Assembly (NCBI GenBank): GCA_964509455.1 | Contig: CAZDXS010000157.1 | Coordinates: 1 to 59,473 of the forward strand | Source: an uncultured Enterobacteriaceae bacterium | GTDB lineage: Bacteria; Pseudomonadota; Gammaproteobacteria; Eutrophobiales; Eutrophobiaceae | DNA length: 59,473 nt | Direction: 5' to 3' | In this document: positions 6,475-38,906 of the stretch, in pieces | Layout: each line of letters starts with the position of its first letter | Numbering within the stretch: the first letter of the stretch is position 1 | Notes under the pieces: model-generated | The model's input: only the letters and a program-made list of their open reading frames with translations | Told to the model about the DNA's origin: nothing | Databases searched by the model: none | Program-made: the position numbers and the translations under genes

Positions 6475-8205
6475 ATGTTAACGCGTCTTTTCATCATCAA
6501 CTTCGCGGTCATCGACCGCGTGGAGATAGCCTTTCAGGAAGGATTGACCGTGCTGACCGGCGAAACCGGCGCCGGCAAGTCCATATTAGTGGACGCCCTG
6601 GGGCTGGCGTTGGGCGGCCGGGCGGACCCTGCCGTCATCCGCACCGGTTGCGACCGTGCGGAAATCAGCGCCGAGTTCAACATCGACGGCAACGAAGACC
6701 TGTTGCGCCTGTTGCAAGAGCAGTCCATTCCGGTGTACGAAGACGGACTGACGCTGCGCCGGGTGGTGAACGCCGCCGGCCCCTCCCGCGCCTACGTCAA
6801 TGCCGCGGCGGCGCCGGCGCAACTGTTGCGGGAAGTCGGCGCCTGCCTGGTGGATATTTACGGCCAGCATGCGCATCAGTCCCTGCTGAAAAGGGGCGAA
6901 CAGCGGGAGTTGTTGGACGATTTTGGCGACTACGGCGCCGTGCTGGGGCAGGTGCGCCGGTCTTTCGCCCGGTGGGACGCGGCCGCTCGCGAACTGGGGC
7001 GGCTGACCCAGGGCGGAGAGGAGTTTGACGCCCAGGCGGCGTTGCTTCGCTACCAGGTGGAGGAGCTGGACGGGCTGGATCTGCAGGAAAACGAGCCGGA
7101 GCGCCTGGAGGTCGAGTACCGGCAGCTGGCCAACGCCGACCGCCTGCTGGAAGTCACCCAGGCGTCCCTGCACGACCTGTACGGCGGCGACCAGTCCCTG
7201 AACGACCGCCTCGGCGCCGTGAAAAGGGAGCTGGCTTCCCTGGAGAAACTGGACGCCGGCCTGGCGAACGTGGGCGAGTTGCTGGAGAATGCGACCATAC
7301 AGGTGGCAGAGGCGGCCGACGAATTGCGCGCCTACCTGGACGGACTGGAGCAGGACCCCGCCCGCCTGCGCGCCGTGGAACAACGCCTGGAACTGTTGCA
7401 AGACACGGCCCGCAAGCACCGGGTGTCGCCCGGGCAACTGTACCAGCGTCACCTGGCGTTGCGGCAGGAGTTGGAGGAGATGGAGGGCGCCCGGGAGCGG
7501 GTAGCGGAACTGGAGCAGGCCCAAGATGCGGCGCTGGCGGAGTACCGGGCGGCGGCGGCGCAACTGGGCGAGCACCGGCGCGAGTCCGCCGCGGCCATGG
7601 CGGCGCAGGTCGCGGAGCTCATTCGCTCCCTGGGCATGCCGCAGGCGGAGTTCCAGGTCGCGGTGGAGACGGCGGCGGACGCACAACCCCGCGAAAAAGG
7701 CGACGACCAGGCGGAGTTCCTCATCTCCGCCAACCCCGGCCAGGCGCCGCAACCGCTGCGCAAGGTGGCGTCGGGCGGGGAGTTGTCGCGCATCGGCCTG
7801 GCGGTGCAAGTGAGCGTGAACCGGGACCGGGCCTTGGAGGCCATGATCTTCGACGAGATTGACGCAGGCATCGGCGGCGGAGTGGCGGAAATCGTGGGGC
7901 GGTTGTTGCACGAACTGGCGGCCGGCCGGCAGGTTTTCTGCGTCACCCACCTGCCGCAGGTGGCGTCCCAGGGAGACCATCACTTCCAGGTGGTGAAAGC
8001 CTCCGACGGGCAGGCTACTGAGACCCGCGTCGTGCCGCTGGCGGGGGACGAGCGAGTGGAGGAAATCGCCCGCATGGCCGGCGGCGTCACGGTCTCGGAG
8101 CGCTCCCGGGAACACGCACGGGAGATGTTGGGGCAGGGGGACGGGGACGCAGGCGCCGGCGCGGACGCGAGCGCCGGCGCGGAGGCGGGCGCGGACAGCC
8201 CGTGA
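6475..8205 (+). CDS. recN: DNA repair protein RecN
   Basis: TGETGAGKS, coiled coil, ASGGELSR, IFDEIDAGIGG, CVTHLPQVA; ATG at 6475. Confidence 0.96.
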   Translation: MLTRLFIINFAVIDRVEIAFQEGLTVLTGETGAGKSILVDALGLALGGRADPAVIRTGCDRAEISAEFNIDGNEDLLRLLQEQSIPVYEDGLTLRRVVNAAGPSRAYVNAAAAPAQLLREVGACLVDIYGQHAHQSLLKRGEQRELLDDFGDYGAVLGQVRRSFARWDAAARELGRLTQGGEEFDAQAALLRYQVEELDGLDLQENEPERLEVEYRQLANADRLLEVTQASLHDLYGGDQSLNDRLGAVKRELASLEKLDAGLANVGELLENATIQVAEAADELRAYLDGLEQDPARLRAVEQRLELLQDTARKHRVSPGQLYQRHLALRQELEEMEGARERVAELEQAQDAALAEYRAAAAQLGEHRRESAAAMAAQVAELIRSLGMPQAEFQVAVETAADAQPREKGDDQAEFLISANPGQAPQPLRKVASGGELSRIGLAVQVSVNRDRALEAMIFDEIDAGIGGGVAEIVGRLLHELAAGRQVFCVTHLPQVASQGDHHFQVVKASDGQATETRVVPLAGDERVEEIARMAGGVTVSERSREHAREMLGQGDGDAGAGADASAGAEAGADSP

Positions 8206-8469
8206 CAGTGTTGACCATGTCCGCTCGCCTGGATGCCGTTCCCCGAAGCGCGGCGCCTGCATCACCTTGTGCGGCGCCGCATGCGGCGCCGTGGCGCGGC
8301 GCGGGCGCACCTGCCGTTGTCGCAACGCCGCGAATGCGCCGGTGCGCAGGCGCGGCAAGCAACGCCGGCCTGGCGCGGATGCCGGCGCCCGGCGCGGCAA
8401 ACGCCTCAGCATTCTCTCCACGGCGCCCGCGAAACTGGTAAACTGGCTGGCAGGCAACAAGGCAACATC

Positions 8470-10062
8470 ATGGCATCCAAGCGCAAACAAAAAAACGACG
8501 CGAGCCGCACCGCAACCGCCGCCAACGGCGCGAATCTGGGCTTCGAGAGGCGGCTGTGGGCCGCCGCAGACAAGATGCGCGGCAGCATGGACCCCTCCGA
8601 GTACAAGCACATCGCCCTGGGCCTCATCTTCCTCAAGTACATCTCCGACGCTTTCGAGGCGCACCGCGCCGCCCTGCTGGAAAATAAACAGGCGGATGCG
8701 GAAGACCCGGACGAGTACCTGGCCGCCAACGTCTTCTGGGTTCCCGACAAGGCCCGCTGGTCCCACTTCCAGGCCCATGCCAGGCAACCGTCCATCGGCA
8801 AGATTATCGATGACGCCATGCATGCCATAGAGTCCAGGAACAAGATCCTCAAGGGCGTGTTGCCGAAAATCTACGCGCGCCCCATGCTGAACAAGGTGAT
8901 GTTGGGAGAGTTAATCGACCTTGTCAGCGGCATCGGCATGGGCGAGAAGAGCGACCGCTCGCGGGACGTGCTGGGCCGGGTCTATGAGTATTTTCTGGGC
9001 GCTTTCGCCAGCGCCGAGGGCAAAGGTGGCGGCGAGTTTTACACGCCCAGTTCCATCGTACGCCTGCTGGTCGAGATGCTGGAGCCCTACAAGGGCCGCG
9101 TCTATGACCCCTGTTGCGGCTCCGGCGGCATGTTCGTGCAGTCAGGGAGGTTCGTGGAAGAGCACGGCGGGCGCATCGTCGACGACATCGCCATCTACGG
9201 CCAGGAGAGCAACCCCACCACTTGGCGGCTGGCGCGAATGAACCTGGCGGTGCGGGGCATACCCGCGGAACTGCACTGGAACAACGAGGGCAGCTTCCAC
9301 AAGGATGCGCTGCCTGACCTCAAGGCCGACTTCATCCTGGCCAACCCGCCGTTCAACGATAAGGACTGGGGCGGCGAGCGTCTGCGGGAGGACGCCCGCT
9401 GGCGGTTTGGTGTGCCTGTGAGCAATTCCAACTACGCCTGGTTGCAACACATACGCCACCACCTGGCGCCCGGCGGCGCGGCGGGCGTGGTGCTGGCTAA
9501 CGTTACCATGTCCTCAGGAAAGTCCGACGAGGCCGCCATTCGCCGCGCCCTAGTAGCGGCAGACCAAGTGGACTGCATGGTGGAGTTGCCGGGACAACTT
9601 TTCTACACCACCTCGAGCCTCGCCTGTCTGTGGCTCCTTTCCCGCGACAAAAATGCCGACAAAAAAGGGGGGCGCGACCGCCGCGGCCAGGTGTTGTTCA
9701 TCGATGCCCGCGCCCTGGGCCGCATGGTGGACCGCAAGCACCGGGAATTTACGGACGAGGACATTGAGAAGGTGGCGCGTTGCTACCATGCCTGGCGCGG
9801 CGAACCAGACGCCGGCGAGTACCAAGACATTCCGGGCTTTTGCAAGGCCGCGACCCTGGAGGAAATCGAAGAGCGCGACTGCGTGTTGGCACCGGGACGC
9901 TACGTGGGGGCGGCGCCGGTGGAGGAGGACGGCGAGCCGTTCGCAGACAAGATGCGGCGCCTGGCCGCGGACCTGGGCGAGCAACAGGCCGAGGGGGCGC
10001 GGCTGGACGCGGAAATACGCCGCAACCTGCAAAAACTGGGCTTTGACGCGGGGAAGTCGTGA
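8470..10062 (+). CDS. hsdM: Type I R-M methyltransferase subunit
   Basis: [31 protein letters not shown]; ATG at 8470. Confidence 0.95.
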
Positions 10063-11312
10063 ACATCGACCAACAGGAAGTGGAGCGCCAACTGTGCTTG
10101 GGCGAGGACAGCCGCTGGGAATTCAAGCAAGTGGAGTTTCGCGGCGACAAGCCCGTCAGCCCGTCGCGGGATGATTTGGCCGACGAAATCGCGGCCCTCG
10201 CCAACACGGACGGCGGCGCGGTATTGTGCGGCGTAACGGATGCCGGCGCGGCCCAGGGGCTGTCCAGGGAGCAAATGGATGCTCTGGACGTGCTGGTGGT
10301 GGATGTATGCTCCGATGCCATCCATCCCCCCATAATCCCCGACACACGCCGCTTGGAAGTTGCCGGCGGCAAGCCGTTGCTGTTGGTGCGCGTTTCAGCG
10401 GGTGACGCCGTGCATGAAAGCCCCGGCGGCGACTTTCAGCGAGAGGGCAACTCCCTGCGGCGAATGACCGACGAACAGCGCCTGCGCCTGGCGCAACGGC
10501 GCGGGCAAGCGCGCTTCCTGTGGTTCGATAAGCAACCCGTGCCAGGCACCGGCTTCAACACCTTGGAAGAGAGCCTGTGGAAACCGTTGTTGAGCGCCGC
10601 CGGCGCCGCCGACCCCAGGGCGGCGCTGAAGAGGATGGGCCTGTTGATAAATGATGACAAGCAGAGGTTGCGGGCGTCGGCGGCGGGCATACTGCTGTGT
10701 TGCTCCGCGCCTGATGAGTGGTTTCCCAACGCCTGCATCACGGCTGTTTGCTATCGCGGCGAGGACCGGGCATCAGGACAGGCGGACGCGCAAACCATCA
10801 GCGGCCCGCTTCCCCGCCAAATCAAGGAAGCCGTTGCTTTCGCGGTACGCAACATGCGCGTGCCCGCTCTCAAGGCGCCGACCCGGGAGGAGCGGCCCCA
10901 GTACAGCGAACAAGCGTTGTTCGAGGCGGTGGTCAATGCCGTCGTCCACCGCGATTACGCCATCAAGGGCAGCCGGATTCGCTTGTCCATGTTTGCCGAC
11001 CGGCTGGAGCTTCAATCGCCCGGCCAGTTGCCCAACGGCATGACCGTGGACAGCCTGGGAGACCGGCAATCGGTACGCAACGAGGTGTTGGTTGCGATTC
11101 TCGGCAGGGCGCCGGTGAACGGCATTCGCGGCGGCGGCGACCGGTTGTATCTCATGGAGCGGCGCGGGGACGGCATACCCATTATTCGGCGCGAGACCCG
11201 GGCGCTCAGCGGCAAACCGGCGCAGTTCAAAATGGTGGACGGAGTGGACTTGCGCCTCACCCTGCCCGCGGCCCCGCCGCAGGCGCCGACCCCCGTCCGT
11301 CCAATGCGCTGA
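10059..11312 (+). CDS. AlbA_2 (Schlafen-like) domain + RecG-C/HATPase_c_4 domain protein
   Basis: [19 protein letters not shown] at N-terminus; [26 protein letters not shown]-terminally; GTGA overlap with hsdM stop. Confidence 0.85.
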
Positions 11313-11352
11313 GGCGCATCTCGGTAAGTTGCCGCGCTGGGACCGGGTAACG

Positions 11353-11886
11353 TGGTAAGGAAACCGCTGTTTTGTTACCATGTTCACGGCGATATGGTAA
11401 GGAAGTCGCCGTTTCGTTACCATGTCTTTGGCGATATGGTAAGGAAGTCGCCGTTTCGTTACCATGTCCTGGGCAATGTGGTAAGGAAAGTGCCGTTTTG
11501 TTACCATGTCCTCGGCGATGTGGTAAGCAAAGCACCGTTTTGTTACCATGTGCCTGGCGATATGGTAAAATAACCACCGTTTCGTTACCATGTTTCTGGC
11601 GATATGGTAAGATAACCGCCGTTTCGTTACCATGTCCACGGCAATATGGTAAGCAAACTGCCGTTTCCTTACCATGTCCTGGGCGATGTGGTAATAAAAC
11701 CGCCGTTTCGTTACCATGTTTCTGGCGATATGGTAAAGAAATCGCCGTTTCGTTACCATGTCCTCGGCGATGTGGTAAGGAAAGCGCCGTTTCGTTACCA
11801 TGCCCGCGGCAATATGGTAAGCAAAGCACCGTTTTGTTACCATGTCCTCGGAAATTTGGTAGGATAACCACAACTTTTTTATCATG
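11353..11886. repeat. Strict 42-bp tandem array (12 full units + degenerate 13th) with internal dyad symmetry TGGTAA-N16-TTACCA-N14
   Basis: TGGTAA every 42 bp from 11353 to 11815, TGGTAG at 11857; TTACCATG in all 12 full units; no indels. Confidence 0.97.
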
Positions 11887-12993
11887 TCAAAGTCAAGCGA
11901 TACCCTGACCAACCTGCCGCCAGCCGTTGACCTGGAGACGGCCCCGGTGCTGAAAGCGCTGACGACTGCCCACCGGGCGCTCGCGGAGTTGAAAGGGCGT
12001 GCCGCTACCATTCCCAACCAGAGCATTCTGGTCAATACTCTCACCCTGCAAGAGGCGAAAGCATCATCTGCAATAGAGAACATCGTTACCACCCAGGACG
12101 AACTCTTTCAGGCGGAGCTGTCTCCTGAAAATACGCAATCTGCAGCAACTAAGGAAGTAGCTCGTTACCGTGAAGCATTGAAATTGGGCTTCAAACGCCT
12201 GGAAGATTCCCAAGGCATCATCTCTAACAACACGCTGATCAAGATGTTTCAACTGTTGAAAGAAAGGAGTGGTGGCTTTCGGGAGACGCCTGGCACCGTG
12301 CTAAAAGACGGCCGCACCGGGAGAACTATCTATACGCCGCCGCAGGATGCTAACGAGATCGTGGCGTTGATGACGGACCTGGAACGCTTTGTCAACGAGG
12401 ACGATGCCTGCCCCTTGGATCCACTGACCAAGATGGCGCTCATTCACCACCAGTTCGAGAGCATCCACCCTTTCCCCGACGGCAACGGCAGGGTCGGGCG
12501 CATCCTGAATGTCCTCTACTTGGTCCGTGTCGGCTTGCTGGAATCTCCGATACTTTATCTCAGCCGCTACATTATTCGAACCAAAAATGATTATTACCAC
12601 TTGCTCCAAGCAGTGCGCGGCAACGGCGATGAGGCCGATGCGTGGAGGAAATTGGTGCTGTATATGCTGGAGGGAGTCGCGGAGACGGCGTGCGCCACGC
12701 TGGAGCTGGTGGAGGGCATGCGGGAGCAGACGGCCGCCGCCAAGCATCGCATGCGAACGGAGTTCCCCAGGATGTACTCCCAGGATTTGCTGAACAACCT
12801 GTTTCGGCACCCCTACACGCGCATCGAGTTCGTAGCGGAGGAACTGGACGTCACGCGGCACACGGCCGCCAAGTACCTGGACGCCCTGGCGGGGGCGGGC
12901 TTCGTGCGCAAGCATCGAGTGGGGCGCAACAACTACTATATTAATGAGCGGCTCGTGCAACTGTTCCTGGACGCCGCCGGCGAGTCCCAGTGA
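11884..12993 (+). CDS. Fic family protein (SoFic-like; N-terminal inhibitory helix, C-terminal HTH)
   Basis: HPFPDGNGRVGR Fic motif; SSAIEN inhibitory motif; C-terminal VTRHTAAKYLDAL...G HTH-like segment. Confidence 0.93.
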   Translation: MSKSSDTLTNLPPAVDLETAPVLKALTTAHRALAELKGRAATIPNQSILVNTLTLQEAKASSAIENIVTTQDELFQAELSPENTQSAATKEVARYREALKLGFKRLEDSQGIISNNTLIKMFQLLKERSGGFRETPGTVLKDGRTGRTIYTPPQDANEIVALMTDLERFVNEDDACPLDPLTKMALIHHQFESIHPFPDGNGRVGRILNVLYLVRVGLLESPILYLSRYIIRTKNDYYHLLQAVRGNGDEADAWRKLVLYMLEGVAETACATLELVEGMREQTAAAKHRMRTEFPRMYSQDLLNNLFRHPYTRIEFVAEELDVTRHTAAKYLDALAGAGFVRKHRVGRNNYYINERLVQLFLDAAGESQ

Positions 12994-13052
12994 GCGACGG
13001 GGAAGCATCGGTCGTCAACCCAGGCCGGCGCTGTACAGACCTGCCCTGGAGA

Positions 13053-13061
13053 TGGTATACT
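13053..13061 (+). promoter_or_regulatory. Putative extended -10 promoter for the membrane protein-TIR pair
   Basis: TG-G-TATACT about 26 nt before ATG 13087. Confidence 0.45.
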
Positions 13062-13086
13062 CGACTCAAATTTGGAAACCTTGACG

Positions 13087-13473
13087 ATGGAAGCGAAACT
13101 CAAACATCTTGAATTCATTCAGGGCGTGATTAACCGCCTTGCCGCCGCCTCGTTCAGCGTAAAACGATGGGCCGTGCTCTTGGTGTCGGCGCTCATCTTT
13201 TTGCTGGCGAGAGAGGGGACGTTCGAGTTTGCCTGGGCGGGCTTTGCGTCAGTGGCGATATTCTGGGGGCTTGACGGCTACTTCCTGTGGCAAGAGCGGC
13301 TGTTCCGCGCCCTTTACGACCACGTTCGCAACCTGGACGACCGGGAGATCGACTTCTCCATGGACGCCCGCGCTTTCAAGCGCAGTTGGCTTGGCGCGGT
13401 ATTCTCCCGGACATTGGTCCCGTTTTATCTCGTGCTGGCCGCGCTGGTCGGCGCGGTGGCGTTCATTAACTAA
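13087..13473 (+). CDS. Small multi-pass membrane protein (putative TIR-associated effector)
   Basis: HLEFIQGVINRLAAASFSVKRW, three hydrophobic segments, LDGYFLWQERLFRALYD; directly upstream of the TIR gene. Confidence 0.75.
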   Translation: MEAKLKHLEFIQGVINRLAAASFSVKRWAVLLVSALIFLLAREGTFEFAWAGFASVAIFWGLDGYFLWQERLFRALYDHVRNLDDREIDFSMDARAFKRSWLGAVFSRTLVPFYLVLAALVGAVAFIN

Positions 13474-13494
13474 CCGGACCGAGAGGTGGCAAAA

Positions 13495-13938
13495 ATGGTG
13501 CGACAAGTATTTTTCAGTTTCGAGTACAAGCACGACGTATTACGGGCCAATGTTGTCCGTAAGAGTGGGCTAACTCAGGACCGTGATGATGCTGGATTTG
13601 TGGATGCTGCCGAATTCGAGAAAATTGAGAAAAGAGGTAAAGAAGCCATCAAGAAGTGGATTAGAGAGCAACTTTACGGAACGTCTGTTACTGTCGTGCT
13701 GGTTGGTTCTCATACTTGCGATAGTTACTACGTCGATTATGAGATCGAACAGAGCAAAGCACGAGGCAACGGTCTATTGGGGATTGATATCAGCGAGATA
13801 AAGGATCCAAAGAAAGGGAGGAGCCGGTGTTGCGGTATCATCCCGGCAGGTTATCCATTCTACAGTTGGTTTGGAGACGACGGTTACAAAAATATGGGCG
13901 ATTGGATTGAGAAAGCCGCCAAGGATGCCGGGCGCTGA
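13495..13938 (+). CDS. TIR-like domain protein (ThsB/DUF1863 type)
   Basis: VFFSF, GTSVTVVLVG, YVDYEI (catalytic Glu), RGNGLLGI; GAGGTG Shine-Dalgarno before ATG 13495. Confidence 0.88.
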   Translation: MVRQVFFSFEYKHDVLRANVVRKSGLTQDRDDAGFVDAAEFEKIEKRGKEAIKKWIREQLYGTSVTVVLVGSHTCDSYYVDYEIEQSKARGNGLLGIDISEIKDPKKGRSRCCGIIPAGYPFYSWFGDDGYKNMGDWIEKAAKDAGR

Positions 13939-30109: not shown

Positions 30110-30805
30110 TCATTGCTTGTCGCATTTAATCGGCAACCGCTCCAGCCACGGGATGAAGTCGGGGTCGGGAGTTTCATCGACGTGATTCTGGTTCCACAAC
30201 AACGAGCGCCGCACCGCACCGCGGTTGCTGTGGTTGCCCAGCCACTGCGGGTAGGACGGCGGCGGCTTATCGTGATATGCCGACAGCAACGCGATGCTGT
30301 TGCGCTCCAGGTAGCCGCGGTCGCTGTCCGGCCCCGGTGCATCATCAATACAGGCCACCGCGAAAGGCAACTTGCCAATGTACTCGGAGACCAGGCGTTC
30401 CAGCGGCAACTCCCCCTCAGTTAGCTCGGAGCGGTCCATGCCCAGCGCCCTGGCGGCGCTTCCCGGGCTTGATTTGTACCCCCAGGATTTCACCGGTTTG
30501 TGATCGCCGCACTTCATCAGCGCTTTCCCCACCAGCAACCGAAAGATGGAGCCGCGATGATTGCCGCCGCCGGATCCGAGGGTCCCCCGATGTTGCGACA
30601 GTCGCCCCCACAACGTGGACTTCGAGCCGGCTTTCAAGGCATGCGTTCCCACGCGCACGACGCGGGAACGGTCCGACTCCCAGAAGAAATACACGCCGCG
30701 CCGCGGCAACCCCGTCCCGCTGCCGGCATCCGCCAGGTAGCGATAGCCGCCCTGATTTGCTACCAGCAATTCCAGCCACTGGTAGAACCGCTCCCGCTCA
30801 GTCAT
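30110..30805 (-). CDS. GIY-YIG-like protein, paralogue 1
   Basis: GVYFFW...RVVRVG...LWGRLSQH; YLERNSIALL; LWNQNH; ATG overlaps the DUF6884 stop (ATGACTGA). Confidence 0.65.
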   Translation of the reverse strand: MTERERFYQWLELLVANQGGYRYLADAGSGTGLPRRGVYFFWESDRSRVVRVGTHALKAGSKSTLWGRLSQHRGTLGSGGGNHRGSIFRLLVGKALMKCGDHKPVKSWGYKSSPGSAARALGMDRSELTEGELPLERLVSEYIGKLPFAVACIDDAPGPDSDRGYLERNSIALLSAYHDKPPPSYPQWLGNHSNRGAVRRSLLWNQNHVDETPDPDFIPWLERLPIKCDKQ

Positions 30806-31244
30806 CCCGGGCGCGGGAGGCACAACAGTTTTGCAACCAGCTCAGTTGCTCCCCGATTCTCATCCCCTCCATCGGCACGTCCACCTCGTATCCGGCATCC
30901 TCCAACGGCGCCGCCAGGTTTTCGCGGTACCTGGCGCCCGCCAGGAAGACGAACCGGCAGGGATCCAGTTTCAGCAAGTCCTCAAGCACCGGGGCCGCCC
31001 AGTTCCGCCGCTCCCGTGCACCCATATTGTTCAGGGTTTTCTCGTACGGCTCGATCTCCTTTTCCGGGTCAACCAGCCCGTATTTCGCCGAGAGTATGAA
31101 CCAGGGGCATCCCTTGGCCTCCACGTAGCGCCGCGCCTTGAGGAACCAGTCGGATTGATACAAGTCCTTGGCTGCGCACGGGTAGCCCTGTTTTACCGAG
31201 ACGCAGGAAACCAAGTAAATAGTGTCGTCGTTATGTGCGTTCAT
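30798..31244 (-). CDS. DUF6884-like protein
   Basis: IYLVSCVSVK...AKDLYQSDWFLKARRY...WFILSAKYGL...IEPYEKTL...LAGARY...PMEGMRIGEQL; family name from memory. Confidence 0.7.
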   Translation of the reverse strand: MNAHNDDTIYLVSCVSVKQGYPCAAKDLYQSDWFLKARRYVEAKGCPWFILSAKYGLVDPEKEIEPYEKTLNNMGARERRNWAAPVLEDLLKLDPCRFVFLAGARYRENLAAPLEDAGYEVDVPMEGMRIGEQLSWLQNCCASRARDD

Positions 31245-31302
31245 CGTTCTTATTCTGTGATGGAAACGCAGGATGATACCACAGCAGGCAAATCATGGGG
31301 CG
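31238..31302. repeat. 65-bp direct repeat, copy 1 (extended -10, 5'UTR and ATG of the DUF6884-like gene)
   Basis: 64/65 identical to 38842-38906; contains TG-G-TATCAT on the minus strand. Confidence 0.95.
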
Positions 31303-31457: not shown

Positions 31458-34241
31458 TCACGTTTTGTCGCCGCCCGTGGTGAGGCGCTTATCCAGTTCC
31501 ACAAATTGCTGGAGCGTGCTAAAACCGCCGCGGTCGAAGTCGACCTGGTTCACTCGCAGGTAGCGCCAGGGGATGCCGATTTCCTTGCTCACCCGTTCGC
31601 ACCACTGCGCCATGGCGTTGTCCTTTGCTTCCGTTCCCTCCCAGACACGCCCTTTCGTCTCGATGATCCAGTTCACTTCGCCGGCATCGGTTTTTTGCAC
31701 CACCACCCAGTCCGGATAGTAGAAGCCAATGGCGCCGCTCGCTTTCAGGTAGTCCACTCGAAACTGGCTGCTGGAATCTCCTTGCTCGGTGGTGCCCAGC
31801 GCGGCGAAGCGCACCACGTCTTTTGCGATGTCCAGAAACTGGGCGAAGCGGCGCTCGAAGCCGTTGTAGGTCGCCACGTAGTTGAAGACCGTCTTCTTTG
31901 CTCGAGGCGGCGGCAGGTCGCGCCGCCAGAGGAACTTCTTGGTCTCGGAAAGATGGTGGTCCTCCTTGTCGAACTCAATGACGCGCCGCACGACCGTCAA
32001 CTCCGCGATTTTGCGCGCCAGGTACTTGGCGATGCCTTCCCGCAAAGGCAGGCGGTTGAGGTGCGAGCGCACCGCTTTAGCATTAATGTCGACTTCCCTG
32101 CCGAAACAACGCGTCGTCACGTAGTCCCGCACGATGGGGTATAGCTCTGCGAAGCGGTTAGGCAGTTTAGCCTCGCCGATGACCTTGTTGGTAATGCTTG
32201 CCAGCAACTCTTGGGCAAGGAGCAACTCGCCCTCGATGGGTTCTACGTGGATCTCGGTCTCCGTGGGGGCGAATTTTATCTTGAGCGTAACGCGGAATGG
32301 CTCGTCCAGCTCCTTCTGATCGTAGATCGCCTCCAACTCGTCGACGCGAAGTTCCGCCAGCTTGCGAATGTCGTACGCCAGGCTTGGCTTGGTGATTGGA
32401 ATGGCGATGTCGTACTTTATCTTCTCCTGCACAGGCTCGATGATGACCCCCACCGGTGGGTCGGTTTTGGTGACGGCTACGCCCACGCCCTCCGCCTCCA
32501 GTTGCTCGCGCAGAACCTTCAGCAGGTTGCGTGTGCCCAGAACTTCCAGGGTTTGCGTCCGGTCCTGGCTTACCCCAGCCATGAGGCGCAACCCCCTGCC
32601 GATGACCTGCTCCGGCAGGATCTCGGCCTTGGCGGTGAACGGGCGCAGACCCAGCACCACGGAGACGTTCCGCACGTCCCAGCCTTCGCGCAACATCATC
32701 ACGCTGACGATTGCCTTGATGTTGCTCTCTGCCGCGTCGATGTCGCGCGCCGCCGCCCGGGCCTTGTCCAGGTCTTTCTTGGTGATCTCGCCCGCCGTGT
32801 CCGTGTGAATCACCAGCACTTCATCTTGCTTGAAGCCGAACTCTTTGGTTTGCCGCAGGTAGTTGCCGATGGCGTCCGCATAGACGTTTTTCTCGGTCAT
32901 GATGAACAGCACCGGGCGCGTGTTGAGTTTTTTGTAGGTCTCATGATGCACTTTCCAGCGTAGCACCGCGGCCTGCAACCAGTAACCGTACTTCTCGACG
33001 ACATTTTCCTTGGTGATGCCGTCGGGATCTTCCTGGGGTTGCTTAGGATCGTCCTCCTTGGTGACGATGAGCGGCGCCTTGACGATGCGGTCTTCCACCG
33101 CTTGGGCAAGAGGGTAGTCGCATACCGTCCAGGGGAAGTACATCCCGTTCTGATCTTTCGGCGTGGCGGAAAAGTCCAACCACATTGCGAGCCCCTGCGG
33201 CAACGCGTCGTGAATGGCGAGCAGGGATCGACTCCATTGCAGATCCTCGTCGTGAACATGGTGGGCCTCGTCATTCAGCACCACCAGATCGTTTAGCGAC
33301 TTCATCCTTTCCAGCATCGAGCGTTGACCTGAAGATGCCAGGTCTTTCGCCGGCGGGCCCAGTAGCGCATCGATGGGGTTGGCGGGCATCCACTCCTTGT
33401 CCCGCGACTCGTAAAGTTGCTGGATGTTGGTGAGAAAGAGGTTGCCCGAGGCGGCGGGATCCGCGGCATCGCCGCGCAGGATTACGTTCTGGCTGAAAGC
33501 CCCTTTCCACTCCGGCGGGACCAGCGGTAGCCTGTGAAAGATGCTGTTGTCCCTGAAGTCCTTTTCCAGCCGCTGGTAAACAATTACGTTGGGCGCGACA
33601 ATCAAGAAATTGGTCGAGAGCCCCGAGTCCGCCACTTGTTGTTTGTGAAGCCGGGCCCAGACAATGGCCATGGCCATGACCCAGGTCTTGCCCGAGCCGG
33701 TCGCCATCTTGAATGCGAAGCGGCGCAGATCCTCCGGCGGGAGATCCTGCACTCCATCATTATTCAGCTCGGGAACGTAGCGGCGCAATTGCCGTCGGCC
33801 ATCCATGGTGGTTTGGAACTCGATGTCGTCGGCTAGCAGGTCTTTTTTGAACTTGCTTGCATACTTCTTGATCAAGTCCTGTACATCGCGTTGCCCGGCG
33901 ATCTCCACCCGCCACACCAGCGTCTCGATGGCTTCGCGCTGGCAGAAGTGATAGCGGAACGTGTCATCAAACCCCGGGACTTCATGGTCCTCCTCGAACC
34001 AGTACCCGAAAAGGCGCCGCGTCACGGCGGAGGCGCCGGCGTAGCCCCCCTCCCGCCACGCATCCACAGCAGTACGGATCTTCGGCACCAGCAACCGCTG
34101 GCTGTCGCGCCGGCCGGCTTCCACCCGCCAGCCGGTAGCGGCCGCCTCGTCTTTCACCAAGTGGGAAGTGGGCTTTTCCCATGGGCAACGGCCCGGAATT
34201 TCCGGCAGGTCTTTGTCGTAGGCGATGACGGATTTTGCCAT
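31458..34241 (-). CDS. res: Type III restriction enzyme Res subunit
   Basis: FKMATGSGKT, NDEAHH, FSATP, MLREGWD, EQVIGRGLR; C-terminal YPDW...IETKG nuclease. Confidence 0.92.
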   Translation of the reverse strand: MAKSVIAYDKDLPEIPGRCPWEKPTSHLVKDEAAATGWRVEAGRRDSQRLLVPKIRTAVDAWREGGYAGASAVTRRLFGYWFEEDHEVPGFDDTFRYHFCQREAIETLVWRVEIAGQRDVQDLIKKYASKFKKDLLADDIEFQTTMDGRRQLRRYVPELNNDGVQDLPPEDLRRFAFKMATGSGKTWVMAMAIVWARLHKQQVADSGLSTNFLIVAPNVIVYQRLEKDFRDNSIFHRLPLVPPEWKGAFSQNVILRGDAADPAASGNLFLTNIQQLYESRDKEWMPANPIDALLGPPAKDLASSGQRSMLERMKSLNDLVVLNDEAHHVHDEDLQWSRSLLAIHDALPQGLAMWLDFSATPKDQNGMYFPWTVCDYPLAQAVEDRIVKAPLIVTKEDDPKQPQEDPDGITKENVVEKYGYWLQAAVLRWKVHHETYKKLNTRPVLFIMTEKNVYADAIGNYLRQTKEFGFKQDEVLVIHTDTAGEITKKDLDKARAAARDIDAAESNIKAIVSVMMLREGWDVRNVSVVLGLRPFTAKAEILPEQVIGRGLRLMAGVSQDRTQTLEVLGTRNLLKVLREQLEAEGVGVAVTKTDPPVGVIIEPVQEKIKYDIAIPITKPSLAYDIRKLAELRVDELEAIYDQKELDEPFRVTLKIKFAPTETEIHVEPIEGELLLAQELLASITNKVIGEAKLPNRFAELYPIVRDYVTTRCFGREVDINAKAVRSHLNRLPLREGIAKYLARKIAELTVVRRVIEFDKEDHHLSETKKFLWRRDLPPPRAKKTVFNYVATYNGFERRFAQFLDIAKDVVRFAALGTTEQGDSSSQFRVDYLKASGAIGFYYPDWVVVQKTDAGEVNWIIETKGRVWEGTEAKDNAMAQWCERVSKEIGIPWRYLRVNQVDFDRGGFSTLQQFVELDKRLTTGGDKT

Positions 34242-34243
34242 GA

Positions 34244-36107
34244 CTATTTCACCTCCACGGCGAACACCTGCGAGGTGTCATTGCCGAAAATGTCAATCAC
34301 CTTGACGAGGATGCGGTACTTGCCCGGCTTCTCGTAGGCATGCGGGTCGGAGACCAGCGGCAGTTGGCGCTCCTTGCGCGTGCGGTACGCCACCCAGCCT
34401 TGCATGAAAGTATCGTTGCGGAAGTCCCAGTCCACCGCCCAGTAGTCGATGTAGTCCGACGACTCCTGCACCTTGTCGCGCACGTCCTCCGGAATCAGCT
34501 CGGTGTTGGGGATGACGAAATTTTTCAGCGCCACCTGCGCGGTAAGTTTCTCCGGTTGCTTGATCTTGGCTTCCAGATACGCCAGCTGGAAAAAGTGTAC
34601 GTCGCCCTGTGCCACGGCCTGCTCCTCTATCGCCTCTCGAGGAATCTGCAAGAGCAGAAGATTCACGCCTCGGTTTCCTGCCTCTGACACCATCAGGTTT
34701 CCGTTAAGGCCCATCTCCCACTCCCAGCCAAGTACGTGCAACTCGTCCTGCTTGAGCTTCACGCATTCATCCACCGCGGCATCGATATCGTTTATGGTTA
34801 CTGGCGCTTCTACCGCGCCGATGCGGACTAGGGCCTTGCCTTTCCTGCCGTGCAGGTGCGTCATGTCTGCCAGCGGCTGGGCGCCGTAAAGATTGAGAAT
34901 GAAAGCCAGGTACTCGTAGAGCGCCTGCTCCGTGAGCGGCCTGCCTTGCGCTTCGCCGAAAGTCACATCCTGCCAGTGTTGGTGCTCGTACTTGCCGAGA
35001 TTGAGGATCTCGAAAGGTTTGCAGTTCTCGATGCCGAGCAAGCGCTTGCGGGTGACATGAGTGCCCCAGCGCCCCAGGTCGCAACCAATCCAACGACGGC
35101 CCAGCTTCTCGGCGACAGCGAGGGTGGTGCCGGAGCCGCAGAAAAAGTCGGCGACTAGGTCGCCCTCGTTGGAAGATGCCTTGATGATGCGTTCCAACAA
35201 GGCCTCGGGCTTTTGGGTGGGGTAGCCAACTCGCTCGCTACTCATCGGTTGATTCTGCATAGAATTTATATCTGCCCAGACCGTAGAAACCGCTTTGCCT
35301 TCGGTTAAATAGCGGCGGCGGCCAGCAAGAACATAATACTGTCTCCCATTCTCGTCCACTTGATCGTGTTTATCGACCCACTCTTGCGAATGCGGAACAA
35401 GTTGTTTGTTGAATACTGGACTACCTTTGTGGTAGTAAAACAAAACATCGTGATTCCTAATCCACTTATCTGCCCTGGCTTTATAGCCACTAACTGCTTC
35501 GCCCATCCGCCAAATTATCTCATTTCTAAAATTATCTTTCCCAAAAACTTCATCCATCAACAACCGAACGAAGCTATTCACACGCCAATCGCAATGTACG
35601 TAAATACTGCCGTTATCAGCGAGCAAGTCGCGCATCAAGACGAGGCGCTCCCAGATCATCGCGACATAACTGTCCACCCCCTTACTCCAAGTGTCGCGAT
35701 ACGCCTTTTCCTCGATAACAGATTGCTCCTTTTCGACCTCGAGGCTATCTTCACCAATCTGCGCCTTAAAGGAAAAATCCGCCCCTGTCGCAAACGGCGG
35801 GTCAATGTAGATGAGGTCAATTTTACCCGCCAATCTCTCCAGCAAAGACCCCATCACCAGCAAGTTGTCGCCCCATATCAGCTTGTTTTGCCAGCCATTT
35901 TCGGGGTTGCCCCCCCCAGGTTTTAAATAACGTGTCTTGTGGGCCGAGTCGTCCTTTATGAGCCTCGCGCGTGGCGCGGGTCTCGTTCACGGCCTCGATG
36001 ACCTGGAACGGCAGGTTGACGCGCGGCACCTCCTTGAGTGCGCCATTCTCGTCGTACTTGCCCGGCCACACCAGTTCGGTTTTTTCTACGGCGTTGATTG
36101 TTGTCAT
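34244..36107 (-). CDS. mod: Type III Mod (beta-class N6-adenine MTase), copy A; frameshifted at a G8 tract (G7 or G10 restores the frame, ~620 aa)
   Basis: ELVWPGK N-terminus in one frame, NKLIWGDN-IDPPF-TRD-DFFCGSGTT in another; junction is the homopolymer at 35910-35917. Confidence 0.9.
35910..35917 (-). repeat. Poly-G(8) tract in mod copy A
   Basis: C8 on the plus strand at the frameshift point. Confidence 0.9.
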
Positions 36108-36270
36108 GGTCTCTGATGTCTTGTATGGGTTCGCAATTGCTTGGGATTGTAACACAGGTTCGCCTCTCCCTGTTAGTGGGAATACAACTCCCCGCCAGGG
36201 TCTATGGGAAGCCAAGGGCGCATCGCCCAAGCCGCTCCCGGCGCGATGGCGATGACGGACCCCGGCATGG

Positions 36271-38141
36271 CTACTTCACCTCCACGTCGAAGACCTGCGA
36301 GGTGTCGTTGCCGAAAATGTCAATCACCTTGACGAGGATGCGGTACTTGCCCGGCTTCTCGTAGGCATGCAGGTCGGAGACCAGCGGCAGATTGCGCTCC
36401 TTGCGCGTGCGGTATGTCACCCAGCCCTGCATGAAAGTGTCGTTGCGGAAGTCCCAGTCCACCGCCCAGTAGTCGATGTAGTCCGACGACTTCTGCACCT
36501 TGTCGCGCACGCTCTCCGGAAGCAGCCCGGTGTCAGGGATGACGAACTCTTTCAGCGCCACTTGTACAGTGAGTTCCTTCGGGCGCTTGATCTCGGCTTC
36601 CAGATACGCCAGCTCGAAGAAACGCACGTCGCCCTTGGCCACGGCCTGCTCCTCCATCACCTCGCGAGGGATCCGCAAGAGTTGGAGCTTTACGCCTTTT
36701 TGCTTCGCCAGCCCCACCACCAGTTTGTTGAGTCCCATCTCCCATTCCCAGCCGAGCACGTGCAACTCGCCCTGCTTGATCTTCACGCACTCTTCTACCG
36801 CGGCATCGATCTCGTCTATCGTTACCGGGGCATCTACGGCGCCGATGTGAACCATCGCCTTGCCTTGCTTGCCGTGCAGGTGCGCCATGCCCGCCAGCGG
36901 TTGGGCGCCGTAAAGCTTCAGAATGAAAGCCAAGTACTCGTAGAGGGCCCGCTCGGTGAGCGGCTTGTCCTGCGCCTCACCGAAAGTCACGCCTTGCCAG
37001 TACTGGCGTTCGTACTTTCCGAGGTTTAGCACTTCGAATGGATTGCAGTTATCGATGCCGAGCAAGCGCTTGCGGCTGACGTGGATGCCCCAGCGTCCCA
37101 GGTCGCAACCGATCCAGCAGCGGCCCAACTTTTCGGCAACGGCAAGGGTGGTACCGGAACCGCAGAAAAAGTCAGCGACCAGATCTCCCTCATTAGACGA
37201 TGTCCGAATGATTCTCCTGAGGATGCTTTCGTTTTTCTGGGTATCGTATCCTGTCTTCTCCTGCGAGAAGCTTTTGATCTGAATCGAATCAAGTGAATCT
37301 TCCCCCCTGAGCTCGAACTCGAACGAGTTAGCATTCCATACGTCCTCTATGGGATAGCCCTTGCCTTCTGTCTCACCGCCCCTTCGTTCGTAGCCAGAGG
37401 GGTACGGAACGTACTCTTTATTAAACGTGAAATCATCAGGCGCCTTAACATAGAAGAGAATCGTGTCGTGATTCCGAATCCAGTTCTTTGCGGCGCTCTT
37501 GTAGCCTGAAATCCAGCCGATTCGCCAGACGACCTCCCGCTGGAATGAGTCGATGCCAAAAATTTCGTCCATCAAGGACTTAACGTAGTGGCCGACCGTG
37601 GCATCCAGATGAACATAAATTGAACCTCGCGGGCTCAAGAGAGAACGCATAAGGGTGAGGCGATCCCGGATCATCTCCAGATAGCCGGCAAGGCCGCTCC
37701 CCCAGGTGTCGTGATACGCTTTTTCCTCGATAACAGATCGCTCTTTCTTTAACTCGGGGCCCTTTTCGCCAACCTGCGTTTTGAATGAAAAATCCGCCCC
37801 CGTCGCAAACGGCGGGTCAATGTAAATGAGGTCAATTTTCCCCGCCAACTTCTCTAGCAACGACCCCATCACCAGCAGATTGTCGCCCCAGATTAGCTTG
37901 TTGCGCCAACTCTCCGCCTCGACGCTGTCGCTTTCGGGCGCACCCCCCCCCCCCAGATTTTGTAGAACGTGTCTTGTGGGCCGAGCCGTCCCTTATTCGC
38001 CTCCCGCGTGGCGCGGCTCTCGTTCACGGTCTCGATGACCTGGAACGGCAGGCTGACGCACGGCGTCTCCTTGAGACGGCCGTCCTCGTCGTACTTGCCC
38101 GGCCATACCAGTTCGGTCTTGGTTATGTCGATTTTCGCCAT
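36271..38141 (-). CDS. mod: Type III Mod, copy B with a different TRD; frameshifted at a G12 tract (G13 or G10 restores the frame, ~623 aa)
   Basis: MAKIDITKTELVWPGK N-terminus out of frame with NKLIWGDN-IDPPF-TRD-DFFCGSGTT; junction is the homopolymer at 37943-37954. Confidence 0.9.
37943..37954 (-). repeat. Poly-G(12) tract in mod copy B
   Basis: C12 on the plus strand at the position homologous to the G8 tract of copy A. Confidence 0.92.
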
Positions 38142-38155
38142 GTGCTTCGGAGTGC

Positions 38156-38848
38156 TTACAACAGCCCGGCTTTGCGGAAACTGAAAGTCTCTTGTTGCGA
38201 CACAATCAGGTGGTCCAGGATGCGCAGGTCGACGGTTTCCGCGGCTAGGACGACGGCGCGCGTGGTCACCTTGTCCTGCTCGCTGGGCTGGACGTTGCCG
38301 TTCGGATGATTGTGGGCAAGTACCAGGGCCGCCGCCCGGCGCCGTAGCGCTGCCTCGACCACGCGGCGCGGATACACGGCGGCGCGATTGACCGTGCCTT
38401 CCTGCAAGGTCTCCACGCCGTCGCGGAGCAGTCGGCAACCGGAGTCCAGGTACGCCACGGCAAACACCTCGTGCTGGAGCATGCCGATTTTGGCGCGCCA
38501 GAAATCACTGAGCCGGCCGGGGTCGAGCAACACCTCCCCTTCCTCGGACGCCTGTTGCAGGTAGAGCGTTGCCGCGGCGCGAACGGCCTGCAGGTTGACG
38601 GCGGCCACTTCGCCCACGCCCTTGACCGACTGGAGTTCCGCCAGGGGCGCATCGAGGATGCCGCGCAGGCTGCCGAAACGCGCCAGCAGGGCCTTGGCGG
38701 CCGGCTTGGTGTCTTTTCGGGGGATGGCCAGGGTCAGGAGCATCTCGATGACCTCGTACTCCGCAAATCCCGCCAATCCTCCCTTGCGGAAGCGCTCGCG
38801 CAGTCGCCGGCGGTGCTGTACGTAGTGCGGCTGTTCCTGTCCGTTCAT
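38156..38848 (-). CDS. radC: RadC-family JAB/MPN domain protein
   Basis: HRRRLRERF, LLTLAIPRKDTKP, GTVNRAAVYPRRV, HNHPNG...PSEQD, ILDHLIV. Confidence 0.93.
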   Translation of the reverse strand: MNGQEQPHYVQHRRRLRERFRKGGLAGFAEYEVIEMLLTLAIPRKDTKPAAKALLARFGSLRGILDAPLAELQSVKGVGEVAAVNLQAVRAAATLYLQQASEEGEVLLDPGRLSDFWRAKIGMLQHEVFAVAYLDSGCRLLRDGVETLQEGTVNRAAVYPRRVVEAALRRRAAALVLAHNHPNGNVQPSEQDKVTTRAVVLAAETVDLRILDHLIVSQQETFSFRKAGLL

Positions 38849-38906
38849 CGTTTTTATTCTGTGATGGAAACGCAGGATGATACCACAGCAGGCAAATCAT
38901 GGGGCG
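38842..38906. repeat. 65-bp direct repeat, copy 2 (extended -10, 5'UTR and ATG of radC)
   Basis: 64/65 identical to 31238-31302. Confidence 0.95.

What the first reader, a model, noticed from the sequence alone, without database searches (positions are those of the whole stretch)
34244..38141. Two tandem type III mod genes with different TRDs, each switched OFF at a homologous poly-G tract, sharing one res
Seen: the copies are nearly identical at both ends but differ in the TRD between DPPF and FxGxG. Both are frameshifted at the same position after CAAGACACGTT...AAAA(C/T)CT: G8 (G7/G10 in frame) and G12 (G13/G10 in frame). Other genes in the window read intact. Known: simple-repeat phase variation of mod creates phasevarions, and Res is inactive without Mod, so OFF/OFF is safe. 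Inference: a two-bit switch (none, A, B, both) with unequal switching rates set by tract length, possible mixed ModA/ModB complexes, and TRD exchange through the shared flanks. I know single phase-variable mod loci but not this tandem shared-Res design.
Basis: partly seen in the sequence, partly recalled or inferred. Interest (0 to 1): 0.85.

Follow-up and report, generated by a model that had tools for sequence, protein, structure and literature searches.

The report
Two poly-G-switched methylase genes, one nuclease
An uncultured environmental gammaproteobacterium carries two side-by-side DNA-methylase genes feeding one restriction nuclease, each currently broken by a slippery run of Gs; this is very probably a reversible on/off switch, but the same layout is already described in mycoplasmas.

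Summary
On the minus strand lie radC, modA (38141-36271), modB (36107-34244) and res (34241-31458). Both mods are Type III beta-class methyltransferases with a DPPF motif, a divergent recognition domain (TRD, 20% aa identity) and FCGSG. Their flanks are 74-89% identical in protein. Each is out of frame by one base at a homologous poly-G tract (G12, G8; in frame only at 7/10/13).

Nothing else in either gene is broken. dN/dS between the copies is about 0.2, and Res keeps every invariant residue.

The indirect evidence favours real contingency tracts:
- A third allele in another MAG has G9 at the same codon and is also out of frame.
- None of 197 other homologues has the tract.
- The genome has 29 G/C runs of 12 or more where about 0.01 are expected. 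Such runs occur in 20 of the 22 other same-genus genomes, closed ones included.
- Shorter homopolymers show no excess of frameshifts.

The claimed novelty does not hold. The Mycoplasma bovis PG45 locus Mbo45ORF167P (three SSR-bearing mod alleles plus one res; enzyme Mod2Res1) and M. pulmonis are direct precedents.

Verdict: a new member of a known kind, of moderate to low interest. Mixed ModA/ModB complexes remain speculation.

The parts
38838..38906 (-). Upstream copy of a 69-nt direct repeat. It holds an extended -10-like TGGTATCAT (38885-38877) and the radC start codon. Probable operon promoter and 5' leader.
   Evidence: family D8, 97% identical to 31234-31302; motif coordinates. Promoter function is inferred from sequence only.
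38156..38848 (-). radC-like JAB-domain gene (230 aa), first gene of the block. It ends 14 nt before modA.
   Evidence: Pfam RadC E 4e-35. radC also precedes mod in relatives.
36271..38141 (-). modA, a Type III Mod allele. It is out of frame at G12. The 5' frame stops at 37893-37895. The downstream frame is intact to the stop at 36271.
   Evidence: The in-frame product would be 623 aa and is up to 81% identical to full-length homologues.
37943..37954 (-). Poly-G tract of modA (G12 on the coding strand; in frame at G10/G13).
37239..37674 (-). Approximate target-recognition domain (TRD) of modA, between DPPF (37818-37807) and FCGSG (37167-37153).
   Evidence: Protein alignment and DNA identity profile. 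This TRD type is shared with many homologues.
36173..36268 (-). Stub of a res 5' end after the modA stop (ATG at 36268; MPGSVIAIA..., 31 codons). It is preceded by the same GGAGGTGA ribosome-binding site as the real res.
   Evidence: (repeat D1 spans the mod stop and res start).
36108..36270 (-). 163-nt modA-modB spacer with an extended -10-like TGTTACAAT (36154-36146) about 40 nt upstream of the modB ATG. Possible own promoter of modB-res.
   Evidence: The consensus scan found nothing significant, so this is inference.
34244..36107 (-). modB, the second Type III Mod allele. It is out of frame at G8. The 5' frame stops at 35823-35825. The downstream frame is intact to the stop at 34244.
   Evidence: The best non-self homologue is 71% identical.
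35910..35917 (-). Poly-G tract of modB (G8; in frame at G7/G10), at the codon homologous to the modA tract.
35215..35659 (-). Approximate TRD of modB. Its core is 20% identical in protein to that of modA.
31458..34241 (-). res (927 aa). It starts 2 nt after the modB stop. Walker A (residues 180-186), DEAH (324-327), motif VI (545-552) and the PD...ExK nuclease motif (843-863) are all intact.
   Evidence: Pfam. Alignment A1 with six homologues at 69-78% identity; every invariant column is kept.
31234..31302 (-). Downstream copy of the 69-nt repeat, heading the next operon (start codon of the 148-aa ORF 30798-31244). Together the two copies bracket the 7.6-kb radC-modA-modB-res block.

Best explanation
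This is a Type III restriction-modification locus with two tandem, independently phase-variable mod alleles (different recognition domains) and one shared res. It sits in a defence island of an uncultured gammaproteobacterium.

Shown:
- The gene layout.
- Intact catalytic motifs in both Mods and in Res.
- A homologous poly-G tract about 190 nt into each mod.
- Both tracts are one base away from the reading frame (G12, G8; ON at 7/10/13).

Inferred:
- Slipped-strand mispairing at the tracts switches each Mod between full-length and truncated forms (82 or 94 aa). This gives up to four states: none, A, B or both.
- G12 should switch much faster than G8, because mismatch repair is present.
- Res cannot find DNA without Mod, so the present OFF/OFF consensus is harmless.
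- Either Mod, when ON, forms Mod2Res1 with the shared Res through the conserved N- and C-terminal parts, and sets both the methylation motif and the restriction motif.
- res is translationally coupled to modB (2-nt gap, ribosome-binding site inside the modB 3' end). When modB is OFF, about 1.6 kb of untranslated mRNA precedes res. Res output is therefore probably tied more to the modB state than to the modA state.
- The pair arose by recombination between two mod-res units, which left a res 5' stub after modA. Later gene conversion homogenised the ends, including the tract-bearing 5' module.
For: 1. Anatomy, motifs and frame arithmetic.

2. No lesions other than the tract. Both downstream frames are open for 558-560 codons. 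dN/dS between the copies is 0.18 (core) and 0.21 (C-terminal 322 codons), with dS of 0.5-0.75. This means long-term purifying selection on both.

3. Res keeps all invariant residues against six homologues.

4. The tract is a derived, lineage-specific feature. Of 199 homologues with the KLIWGDN motif, only the window's two carry it. The others read ...FDVW/YEGKEGDTFEEGW there.

5. The only other family member with a run of 7 or more Gs at this spot is L030, from another MAG on a MEGAHIT-style contig. It has G9 at the same W codon, follows radC, and is also out of frame. The same site therefore shows three lengths: 8, 9 and 12.

6. The genome-wide G/C homopolymer lengths are bimodal (counts 105, 16, 3, 4, 1 for lengths 7-11, then 5, 7, 6 for lengths 12-14, plus 7 longer). 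There are 29 tracts of 12 or more, where extrapolation gives about 0.01. Many sit just after start codons, and paralogues show a mix of in-frame and out-of-frame states.

7. Tracts of G12 or longer occur in 20 of the 22 other same-genus genomes, closed ones included. They occur in only 3 of 18 genomes from other genera.

8. This is not a general homopolymer problem of the assembly. The frameshift-signature rate is 7% at 6-mers and 4% at 7-mers. Six internal G/C 8-mers read through ORFs, and only the modB tract is shifted.

9. The tandem is unlikely to be a misjoin. The longest exact match between the copies is 63 nt, and the res stub has diverged.

10. Direct precedent for the design and for an OFF copy in genomic DNA: PMC5909438 and 10.64898/2026.05.01.722158.
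Against: - The tract lengths rest on a single MAG consensus, and a G12 run is hard for any platform.
- No second assembly of either allele exists in the protein collection. The best non-self hits are 81% and 71% identical, so same-allele length polymorphism is not shown.
- G8 is below the 9-nt criterion of Atack 2018, and MutS and MutL are intact. modB may be a slow switch or effectively locked off.
- Three OFF states out of three tracts is compatible with random phase (probability 0.30), but equally with decay.
- Promoter and terminator scans were not above shuffled controls, so the independent transcription of modB-res is a guess.
Confidence: 0.68

Rival explanations
1. Homopolymer miscount. 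One or both tracts are really in frame (G13/G10, G7) and stable in the organism. On this reading the frameshifts are consensus errors of the metagenome assembly.
For: The genome is a 270-contig MAG. Many contigs end at long poly-G/C runs, so the assembler clearly struggled with them. G12 is long enough to be miscounted on any platform. Reads could not be inspected.
Against: Shorter homopolymers show no length-dependent excess of frameshift signatures, and six other internal G/C 8-mers read through ORFs. An independent MEGAHIT-style contig from another MAG is also out of frame at the same site. Even if the true length were G13, a 13-nt G run inside a gene is itself hypermutable, so the locus would still be a contingency locus.
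Confidence: 0.13
2. Decaying locus. Both mods are pseudogenes that happened to die at their most mutable site, res is an orphan on its way out, and no adaptive switching occurs.
For: Both copies are OFF. Other family members are inactivated by plain nonsense codons in the same linker region: TAG in L035 and TGA in L044. This shows the family is often lost. G8 with intact mismatch repair reverts slowly.
Against: There are no further lesions in 3.3 kb of mod or 2.8 kb of res. dN/dS is about 0.2, and Res invariants are all kept. The tract is a derived feature shared by three alleles and kept long (12, 9, 8), not eroded. The genome and its genus maintain dozens of such tracts.
Confidence: 0.12
3. 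Leaky OFF state. RNA-polymerase or ribosome slippage on the G run restores the frame in a fraction of products. On this reading the genes are expressed constitutively at a low level, not switched at the DNA level.
For: Transcriptional slippage on long homopolymers is established in bacteria (general knowledge). G12 is in the length range where it could occur.
Against: Slippage is best documented for A/T runs. It would not explain why tract lengths differ between alleles, or why paralogous tract-bearing genes are found in both frames. Nothing was tested here.
Confidence: 0.04
4. Assembly chimera. Two strain-level alleles of a single mod-res locus were joined into a false tandem.
For: The copies share 80-98% identical flanks, and the source is a metagenome bin.
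Against: The longest exact shared stretch is 63 nt. The junction carries a diverged res stub plus about 130 nt of unique spacer. The same tandem layout, with intact mods, exists in a closed genome of the same genus for another Type III family.
Confidence: 0.03

Closest known systems
Mycoplasma bovis PG45 Type III locus Mbo45ORF167P (mod3-mod2-mod1-res; enzyme Mbo45V), and the similar cluster in M. pulmonis
   Same: Several adjacent mod alleles have conserved 5' and 3' ends and different central TRDs (about 70% identity). Each has a simple-sequence repeat at the same place in the gene. One res follows the last mod. A copy was found OFF in genomic DNA. The enzyme is Mod2Res1 (PMC5909438; 10.64898/2026.05.01.722158).
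   Different: There the repeat is the dinucleotide AG/GA (11-24 units), there are three mods, and the host is a small-genome, host-adapted mollicute. Here the repeat is a mononucleotide G run, there are two mods, and the host is an uncultured 65% GC gammaproteobacterium with intact MutS and MutL. The locus lies in a defence island and is preceded by radC.
Poly-G phase-variable Type III mod genes: Helicobacter pylori modH/modJ/modL, Campylobacter upsaliensis modU
   Same: A mononucleotide G[n] tract lies inside the mod ORF, with multiple TRD alleles per gene (PMC5909438).
   Different: Those are single mod genes per locus, in epsilonproteobacteria that (from general knowledge) lack MutSL repair. 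There are no tandem alleles sharing one res.
modA allele families of Haemophilus influenzae and Neisseria (phasevarions)
   Same: Conserved flanks with an exchangeable TRD. ON/OFF switching by a repeat in the 5' part of the ORF. TRD exchange by recombination (PMC3311624, listed; PMC5909438).
   Different: Those use tetranucleotide repeats and carry one allele per strain at the locus. Many have inactive res and act as regulators. Here res is fully intact and no regulon is known.
EcoP15I / EcoP1I prototype Type III enzymes
   Same: mod-res gene order with close coupling, a beta-class Mod (motif IV, then TRD, then motif I), and an SF2 helicase plus PD-(D/E)XK Res. Res depends on Mod for recognition (review PMC12707154).
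   Different: The prototypes have no repeat tract and a single mod.
res-mod-mod locus in a same-genus closed genome (G013:C1, locus L033 7118-13876)
   Same: Two tandem mods with almost identical ends and a swapped TRD (76% overall identity) next to one res.
   Different: It belongs to a different Type III family (38% identity), has res upstream, no repeat tract, and both mods are intact.

Membership tests
Type III restriction-modification system | Mod is a beta-class N6-adenine methyltransferase: motif IV (DPPF/Y) precedes the TRD, and motif I (FxGxG) follows it | tested here: met
   Both copies have DPPF then FCGSG. PF01555 E 2e-41 and 2e-45.
Type III restriction-modification system | Res has SF2 helicase motifs plus a C-terminal PD-(D/E)XK nuclease | tested here: met
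   ResIII E 2e-20 and a weak RE_endonuc match. Walker A, DEAH, motif VI and PD...ExK are all at invariant columns of alignment A1.
Type III restriction-modification system | mod lies immediately upstream of res and is closely coupled to it | tested here: met
   modB stop at 34244-34246 and res ATG at 34241, with the ribosome-binding site GGAGGTGA inside the modB 3' end.
Type III restriction-modification system | ATP-dependent cleavage that needs two inversely oriented unmethylated sites; hemi-methylation of one strand | not testable with these tools
   Needs biochemistry.
Phase-variable (SSR-switched) Type III mod | A simple-sequence repeat inside the ORF of a length known to slip (9 nt or more for mononucleotides in Atack 2018) | tested here: met
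   modA has G12 at 37943-37954. The criterion is quoted.
Phase-variable (SSR-switched) Type III mod | The same length criterion applied to the second copy | tested here: not met
   modB has G8, one below the survey's threshold. The tract is homologous to G12 and G9 tracts, so it may be a contracted, slower switch.
Phase-variable (SSR-switched) Type III mod | Repeat length differs between cells or strains while the rest of the gene stays intact | tested here: inconclusive
   The homologous tract is 8, 9 and 12 nt long in three alleles, all otherwise intact.
Phase-variable (SSR-switched) Type III mod | ON/OFF protein expression and an ON/OFF methylome; for a phasevarion, a regulon that changes with it | not testable with these tools
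   Needs methylome and expression data.
Multi-mod, single-res SSR locus (Mbo45ORF167P type) | Two or more adjacent mod paralogues with conserved ends and different TRDs | tested here: met
Multi-mod, single-res SSR locus (Mbo45ORF167P type) | A repeat tract at the same position in every copy | tested here: met
   Both tracts follow the W codon after CAAGACACGTT...AAAA(C/T)CT.
Multi-mod, single-res SSR locus (Mbo45ORF167P type) | Exactly one res, adjoining the last mod | tested here: met
   Only a 31-codon res stub follows modA. The full res follows modB.

The most novel reading that the evidence does not exclude
The pair could work as a true combinatorial device. When both tracts are in frame, ModA and ModB would form heterodimers on the shared Res. 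In the Mod2Res1 architecture one protomer reads the site and the other methylates, so a heterodimer could give a specificity or strand pattern that neither homodimer has. Because res is coupled to modB, modA-only cells would then be mainly epigenetic variants and modB-ON cells restricting variants.

This would be one element of a genus-wide repertoire of long poly-G switches. That repertoire spans methylases, secreted proteins and a multi-copy small-peptide family, and is maintained in a free-living gammaproteobacterium despite intact mismatch repair.
Probability: 0.1. Interest if true: 0.65.

Novelty: new member of a known kind. Interest (0 to 1): 0.35.

Why it matters
The locus extends the multi-mod, one-res, repeat-switched Type III design beyond mollicutes. 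The new host is an uncultured, GC-rich, mismatch-repair-proficient environmental gammaproteobacterium, and the locus sits in a defence island. This fits the idea that stochastic switching of restriction specificity is a general bet-hedging tactic against phages and not only a trait of host-adapted pathogens.

There are practical consequences:
- Annotation pipelines will call such genes pseudogenes.
- Methylation-based binning of metagenomes may split one population into several 'methylotypes'.
- Long poly-G tracts fragment short-read assemblies of this genus.

The design itself is not new, and function was not shown here.

Tried and rejected

2. Exact and degenerate scans for the tract-bearing 5' module (GPQDT[FL][YF]K[IT]W + G7) in genome contigs and metagenome contigs gave 0 hits.

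3. A looser scan (G7, then 15-45 nt, then KLIWGDN) gave only L030. It also hit an unrelated mod with an in-frame G7 (L031, L032).

4. Search for ON or other-length versions of the same alleles in the 5.8-billion-protein collection. The best non-self hits were 81% (modA) and 71% (modB) identical.

5. Shorter homologues that looked like further OFF alleles (P0132, P0114) were stopped by nonsense codons (TAG, TGA), not by repeats.

6. Survey of 400 genomes of the phylum. The family is sparse (1 hit), so tandem frequency could not be estimated. Five homologue contexts and two same-genus loci have a single mod.

7. Plasmid collection. Only 73-76% identical partial hits in Nitrosomonas plasmids, with no tract.

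8. Consensus promoter and terminator scan. Nothing above shuffled controls.

9. Pfam on the tract-bearing small peptides gave no family.

10. Taxon naming. RecA is a singleton cluster, and the nearest named hits are only 'Gammaproteobacteria bacterium' MAGs at 82% identity or less.

11. Assembly chimera and a general homopolymer error were considered and judged unlikely.
Full report
**What is there.** The interval lies on the minus strand of a 59-kb contig from a 270-contig, 2.78-Mb, 64.9% GC metagenome-assembled genome. The nearest named RecA relatives are 'Gammaproteobacteria bacterium' MAGs at 82% identity or less. The gene order is:
- radC, 38848-38156
- modA, 38141-36271
- a 163-nt spacer
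- modB, 36107-34244
- res, 34241-31458

. Earlier first-reader notes place CBASS, Type I R-M and Gabija-like genes around it, so this is a defence island.

**The two mod genes.** Both mods hit PF01555 and have the beta-class order DPPF, TRD, FCGSG. Res is 927 aa. It keeps every column that is invariant among six homologues of 69-78% identity. These include Walker A, DEAH, motif VI and the C-terminal PD...ExK nuclease motif.

**The frameshifts.**
- modA has G12 (+ strand C12 at 37943-37954). Its 5' frame ends after 82 aa, and the +1 frame is then open for 560 codons to the normal stop.
- modB has G8 (35910-35917). Its 5' frame ends after 94 aa, and the next frame is open for 558 codons.

Total lengths are 1871 and 1864 nt. 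Codon-by-codon reading shows both need a tract of 7, 10 or 13. The tracts follow the same Trp codon in a shared derived sequence, GRLGPQDT(F/L)(Y/F)K(I/T)W.

**How alike the copies are.** The flanks are similar, not nearly identical:

| Region | aa identity |
|---|---|
| before the tract | 74% |
| C-terminal 322 codons | 81% |
| last 93 codons | 89% |
| TRD core | 20% |

**Are the genes alive?** Apart from the tract there is no lesion. dN/dS between the copies is 0.18 in the catalytic core and 0.21 in the C-terminal region, with dS of 0.5-0.75. Both have therefore been under purifying selection for most of their divergence, and they are not a recent duplication. dS falls to 0.30 in the 5' module and 0.13 in the last 93 codons. 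This mosaic fits gene conversion at the ends and TRD replacement in the middle.

**How the pair arose.** Directly after the modA stop there is a diverged 31-codon stub of the res 5' end, with the same ribosome-binding site. The pair therefore arose from two mod-res units, one of which lost its res. A 69-nt direct repeat (97% identical) carries an extended -10-like motif and a start codon. Its two copies bracket the whole 7.6-kb block.

The indirect evidence is as follows.

(a) The tract is lineage-specific. Of 199 homologues with the KLIWGDN motif, only the window's two have it. The others read ...FDV(W/Y)EGKEGDTFEEGW at that spot, a purine-rich stretch that could be its precursor.

(b) A collection-wide pattern scan found one further family member with a tract. 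L030 is a MEGAHIT-style contig of another MAG with radC upstream. It has G9 at the same Trp codon and is again out of frame. The same site thus shows lengths of 8, 9 and 12.

(c) Genome-wide, G/C homopolymer counts fall exponentially and then rise again:

| Length (nt) | 5 | 6 | 7 | 8 | 9 | 10 | 11 | 12 | 13 | 14 | longer |
|---|---|---|---|---|---|---|---|---|---|---|---|
| Count | 4726 | 858 | 105 | 16 | 3 | 4 | 1 | 5 | 7 | 6 | 7 |

That gives 29 tracts of 12 or more against roughly 0.01 expected. Many lie 10-35 nt after a start codon, and paralogues are found both in and out of frame.

(d) G12 or longer tracts occur in 20 of the 22 other genomes of the genus, single-contig ones included. 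They occur in only 3 of 18 genomes from other genera of the family and class.

(e) The assembly shows no length-dependent excess of frameshift signatures at 6-8-mers. Six internal G/C 8-mers read through ORFs, and only the modB tract is shifted.

(f) The tandem is not a repeat-induced misjoin. The longest exact match between the copies is 63 nt, and the junction is unique.

Together these points make contingency tracts the best reading. Against it:
- MutS and MutL are intact.
- G8 is below the 9-nt criterion of the REBASE survey, so modB is probably a slow switch.
- No second assembly of either allele exists to show same-allele polymorphism.

**Mechanism.** The layout, motifs, tract homology and frame states are shown. 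The following steps are inferred:
- Slippage toggles each Mod.
- Res needs Mod for recognition, so OFF/OFF is safe.
- Either Mod can load the shared Res through the conserved termini, giving up to four restriction and methylation states.
- G12 switches faster than G8.
- res is coupled to modB, and about 1.6 kb of untranslated RNA would precede it when modB is OFF. Res output should therefore follow modB more than modA.
- The spacer's TGTTACAAT may give modB-res its own promoter. The consensus scan did not support any promoter above background.
- Mixed ModA/ModB dimers are possible in principle but untested.

**Comparison with the known.**
- Atack et al. 2018 describe three co-localised mod alleles in M. 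bovis PG45 (M1-M3.Mbo45ORF167P). They have GA[n] tracts at the same place, conserved ends and variable TRDs. The authors propose duplication followed by TRD diversification (PMC5909438).
- A 2026 preprint describes the locus as one res plus three mods of about 70% identity, with 11, 14 and 24 AG repeats. mod1 is OFF in genomic DNA, the enzyme is Mod2Res1, and a similar cluster exists in M. pulmonis (10.64898/2026.05.01.722158).
- Poly-G tracts in Type III mods are known from H. pylori and C. upsaliensis, and repeat-bearing mods are known from environmental species.
- Within this genus, a closed genome has res-mod-mod with two intact TRD-swapped mods of another family.
- Earlier notes of this scan report similar poly-G tandem mod loci in other MAGs. 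I treat these only as leads.
- The usual context of this mod family is radC-(UvrD/PD-(D/E)XK helicase-nuclease)-mod-res with a single mod.

**Verdict.** The phase-variation reading is well supported indirectly but not proven. The novelty claim is not supported. This is a new member of a known kind: poly-G instead of AG, two mods instead of three, and an environmental, repair-proficient gammaproteobacterium instead of a mollicute. Interest is 0.35. The more unusual thing seen on the way is the genus-wide set of long poly-G/C tracts, including a multi-copy family of small tract-bearing ORFs with no Pfam match.

Noticed in passing
whole genome G000 (e.g. C102:390-402, C116:6830-6843, C191:434-446, C251:12975-12990, C267:10296-10307); relatives G001-G022: The G/C homopolymer length distribution is bimodal, with 29 tracts of 12 or more. 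Many contigs end at such tracts. G12 or longer tracts occur in 20 of the 22 other same-genus genomes, closed ones included, but in only 3 of 18 genomes from other genera of the family and class. MutS and MutL are intact. The genus appears to run many poly-G contingency loci.
   Followed up: partly
G000:C102:363-620 and C102:~1-260, C116:~6800-7050, C115, C184 (3 copies), C191:~220-470 (-), C227 (2 copies), C251:12966-13200, also C51, C59:470-700, C205, C217: A family of at least 12-15 small ORFs (55-90 aa), often in tandem. Each has a C12-C16 tract after codons 3-11, then a conserved W(R/Q)TP(R/Q)LTDLD motif, a variable tail and a C-terminal (G/P)S. Copies are found both in frame (C102, C13) and out of frame (C116 C14, C191 C13, C115 C12). 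There is no Pfam hit. They might be phase-variable secreted peptides or RiPP-like precursors.
   Followed up: partly
window 31234-31302 and 38838-38906: A 69-nt direct repeat (97% identical) with an extended -10-like TGGTATCAT and a start codon brackets the radC-modA-modB-res block. The downstream copy heads the next operon. This suggests the 7.6-kb block was inserted or recombined at this promoter module.
   Followed up: partly
window 36173-36268 (-): A 31-codon stub of a res 5' end (MPGSVIAIA...), with its own GGAGGTGA ribosome-binding site, follows the modA stop. It is a relic of a lost second res.
   Followed up: yes
L033 (G013:C1:1742000-1759000) 7118-13876 (-): A same-genus closed genome has res (888 aa) followed by two intact tandem mods (625 and 642 aa). 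These are 76% identical, with virtually identical ends and a swapped TRD, and have no repeat tract. It is a second, unrelated tandem-mod Type III locus in the genus.
   Followed up: partly
G000:C123:4855-4867: Another methyltransferase gene (NRLILGDS...IYIDPP) carries a G13 tract about 100 nt upstream of its catalytic core, here in frame. The contig ends inside the gene. C68:12-56 has a G45 run in front of a 708-aa methylase-like ORF at a contig start.
   Followed up: no
L038 1625-9831; L039 2403-7881; L041 2353-11384; L028 5625-13756: Homologues of this mod usually sit in a conserved cassette: radC, a roughly 950-aa UvrD-helicase/PD-(D/E)XK protein, mod, res. In one case a nucleotidyltransferase-HEPN pair sits between mod and res. 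The window and L030 lack the helicase gene.
   Followed up: partly
L035 454-456; L044 1483-1485: Two close homologues are cut short by single nonsense codons (TAG, TGA) in the linker or the KLIWGDN region, just where the window's genes carry their poly-G tract.
   Followed up: yes
L034 (G006:C1:2738000-2750000) 3900-4150 and 6345-6358: Two tandem copies of a roughly 450-aa N4/N6 methylase have identical N-termini. The first is preceded by a roughly 66-nt tandem repeat array. Between them, a G14 tract sits after codon 4 of a signal-peptide protein on the opposite strand.
   Followed up: no
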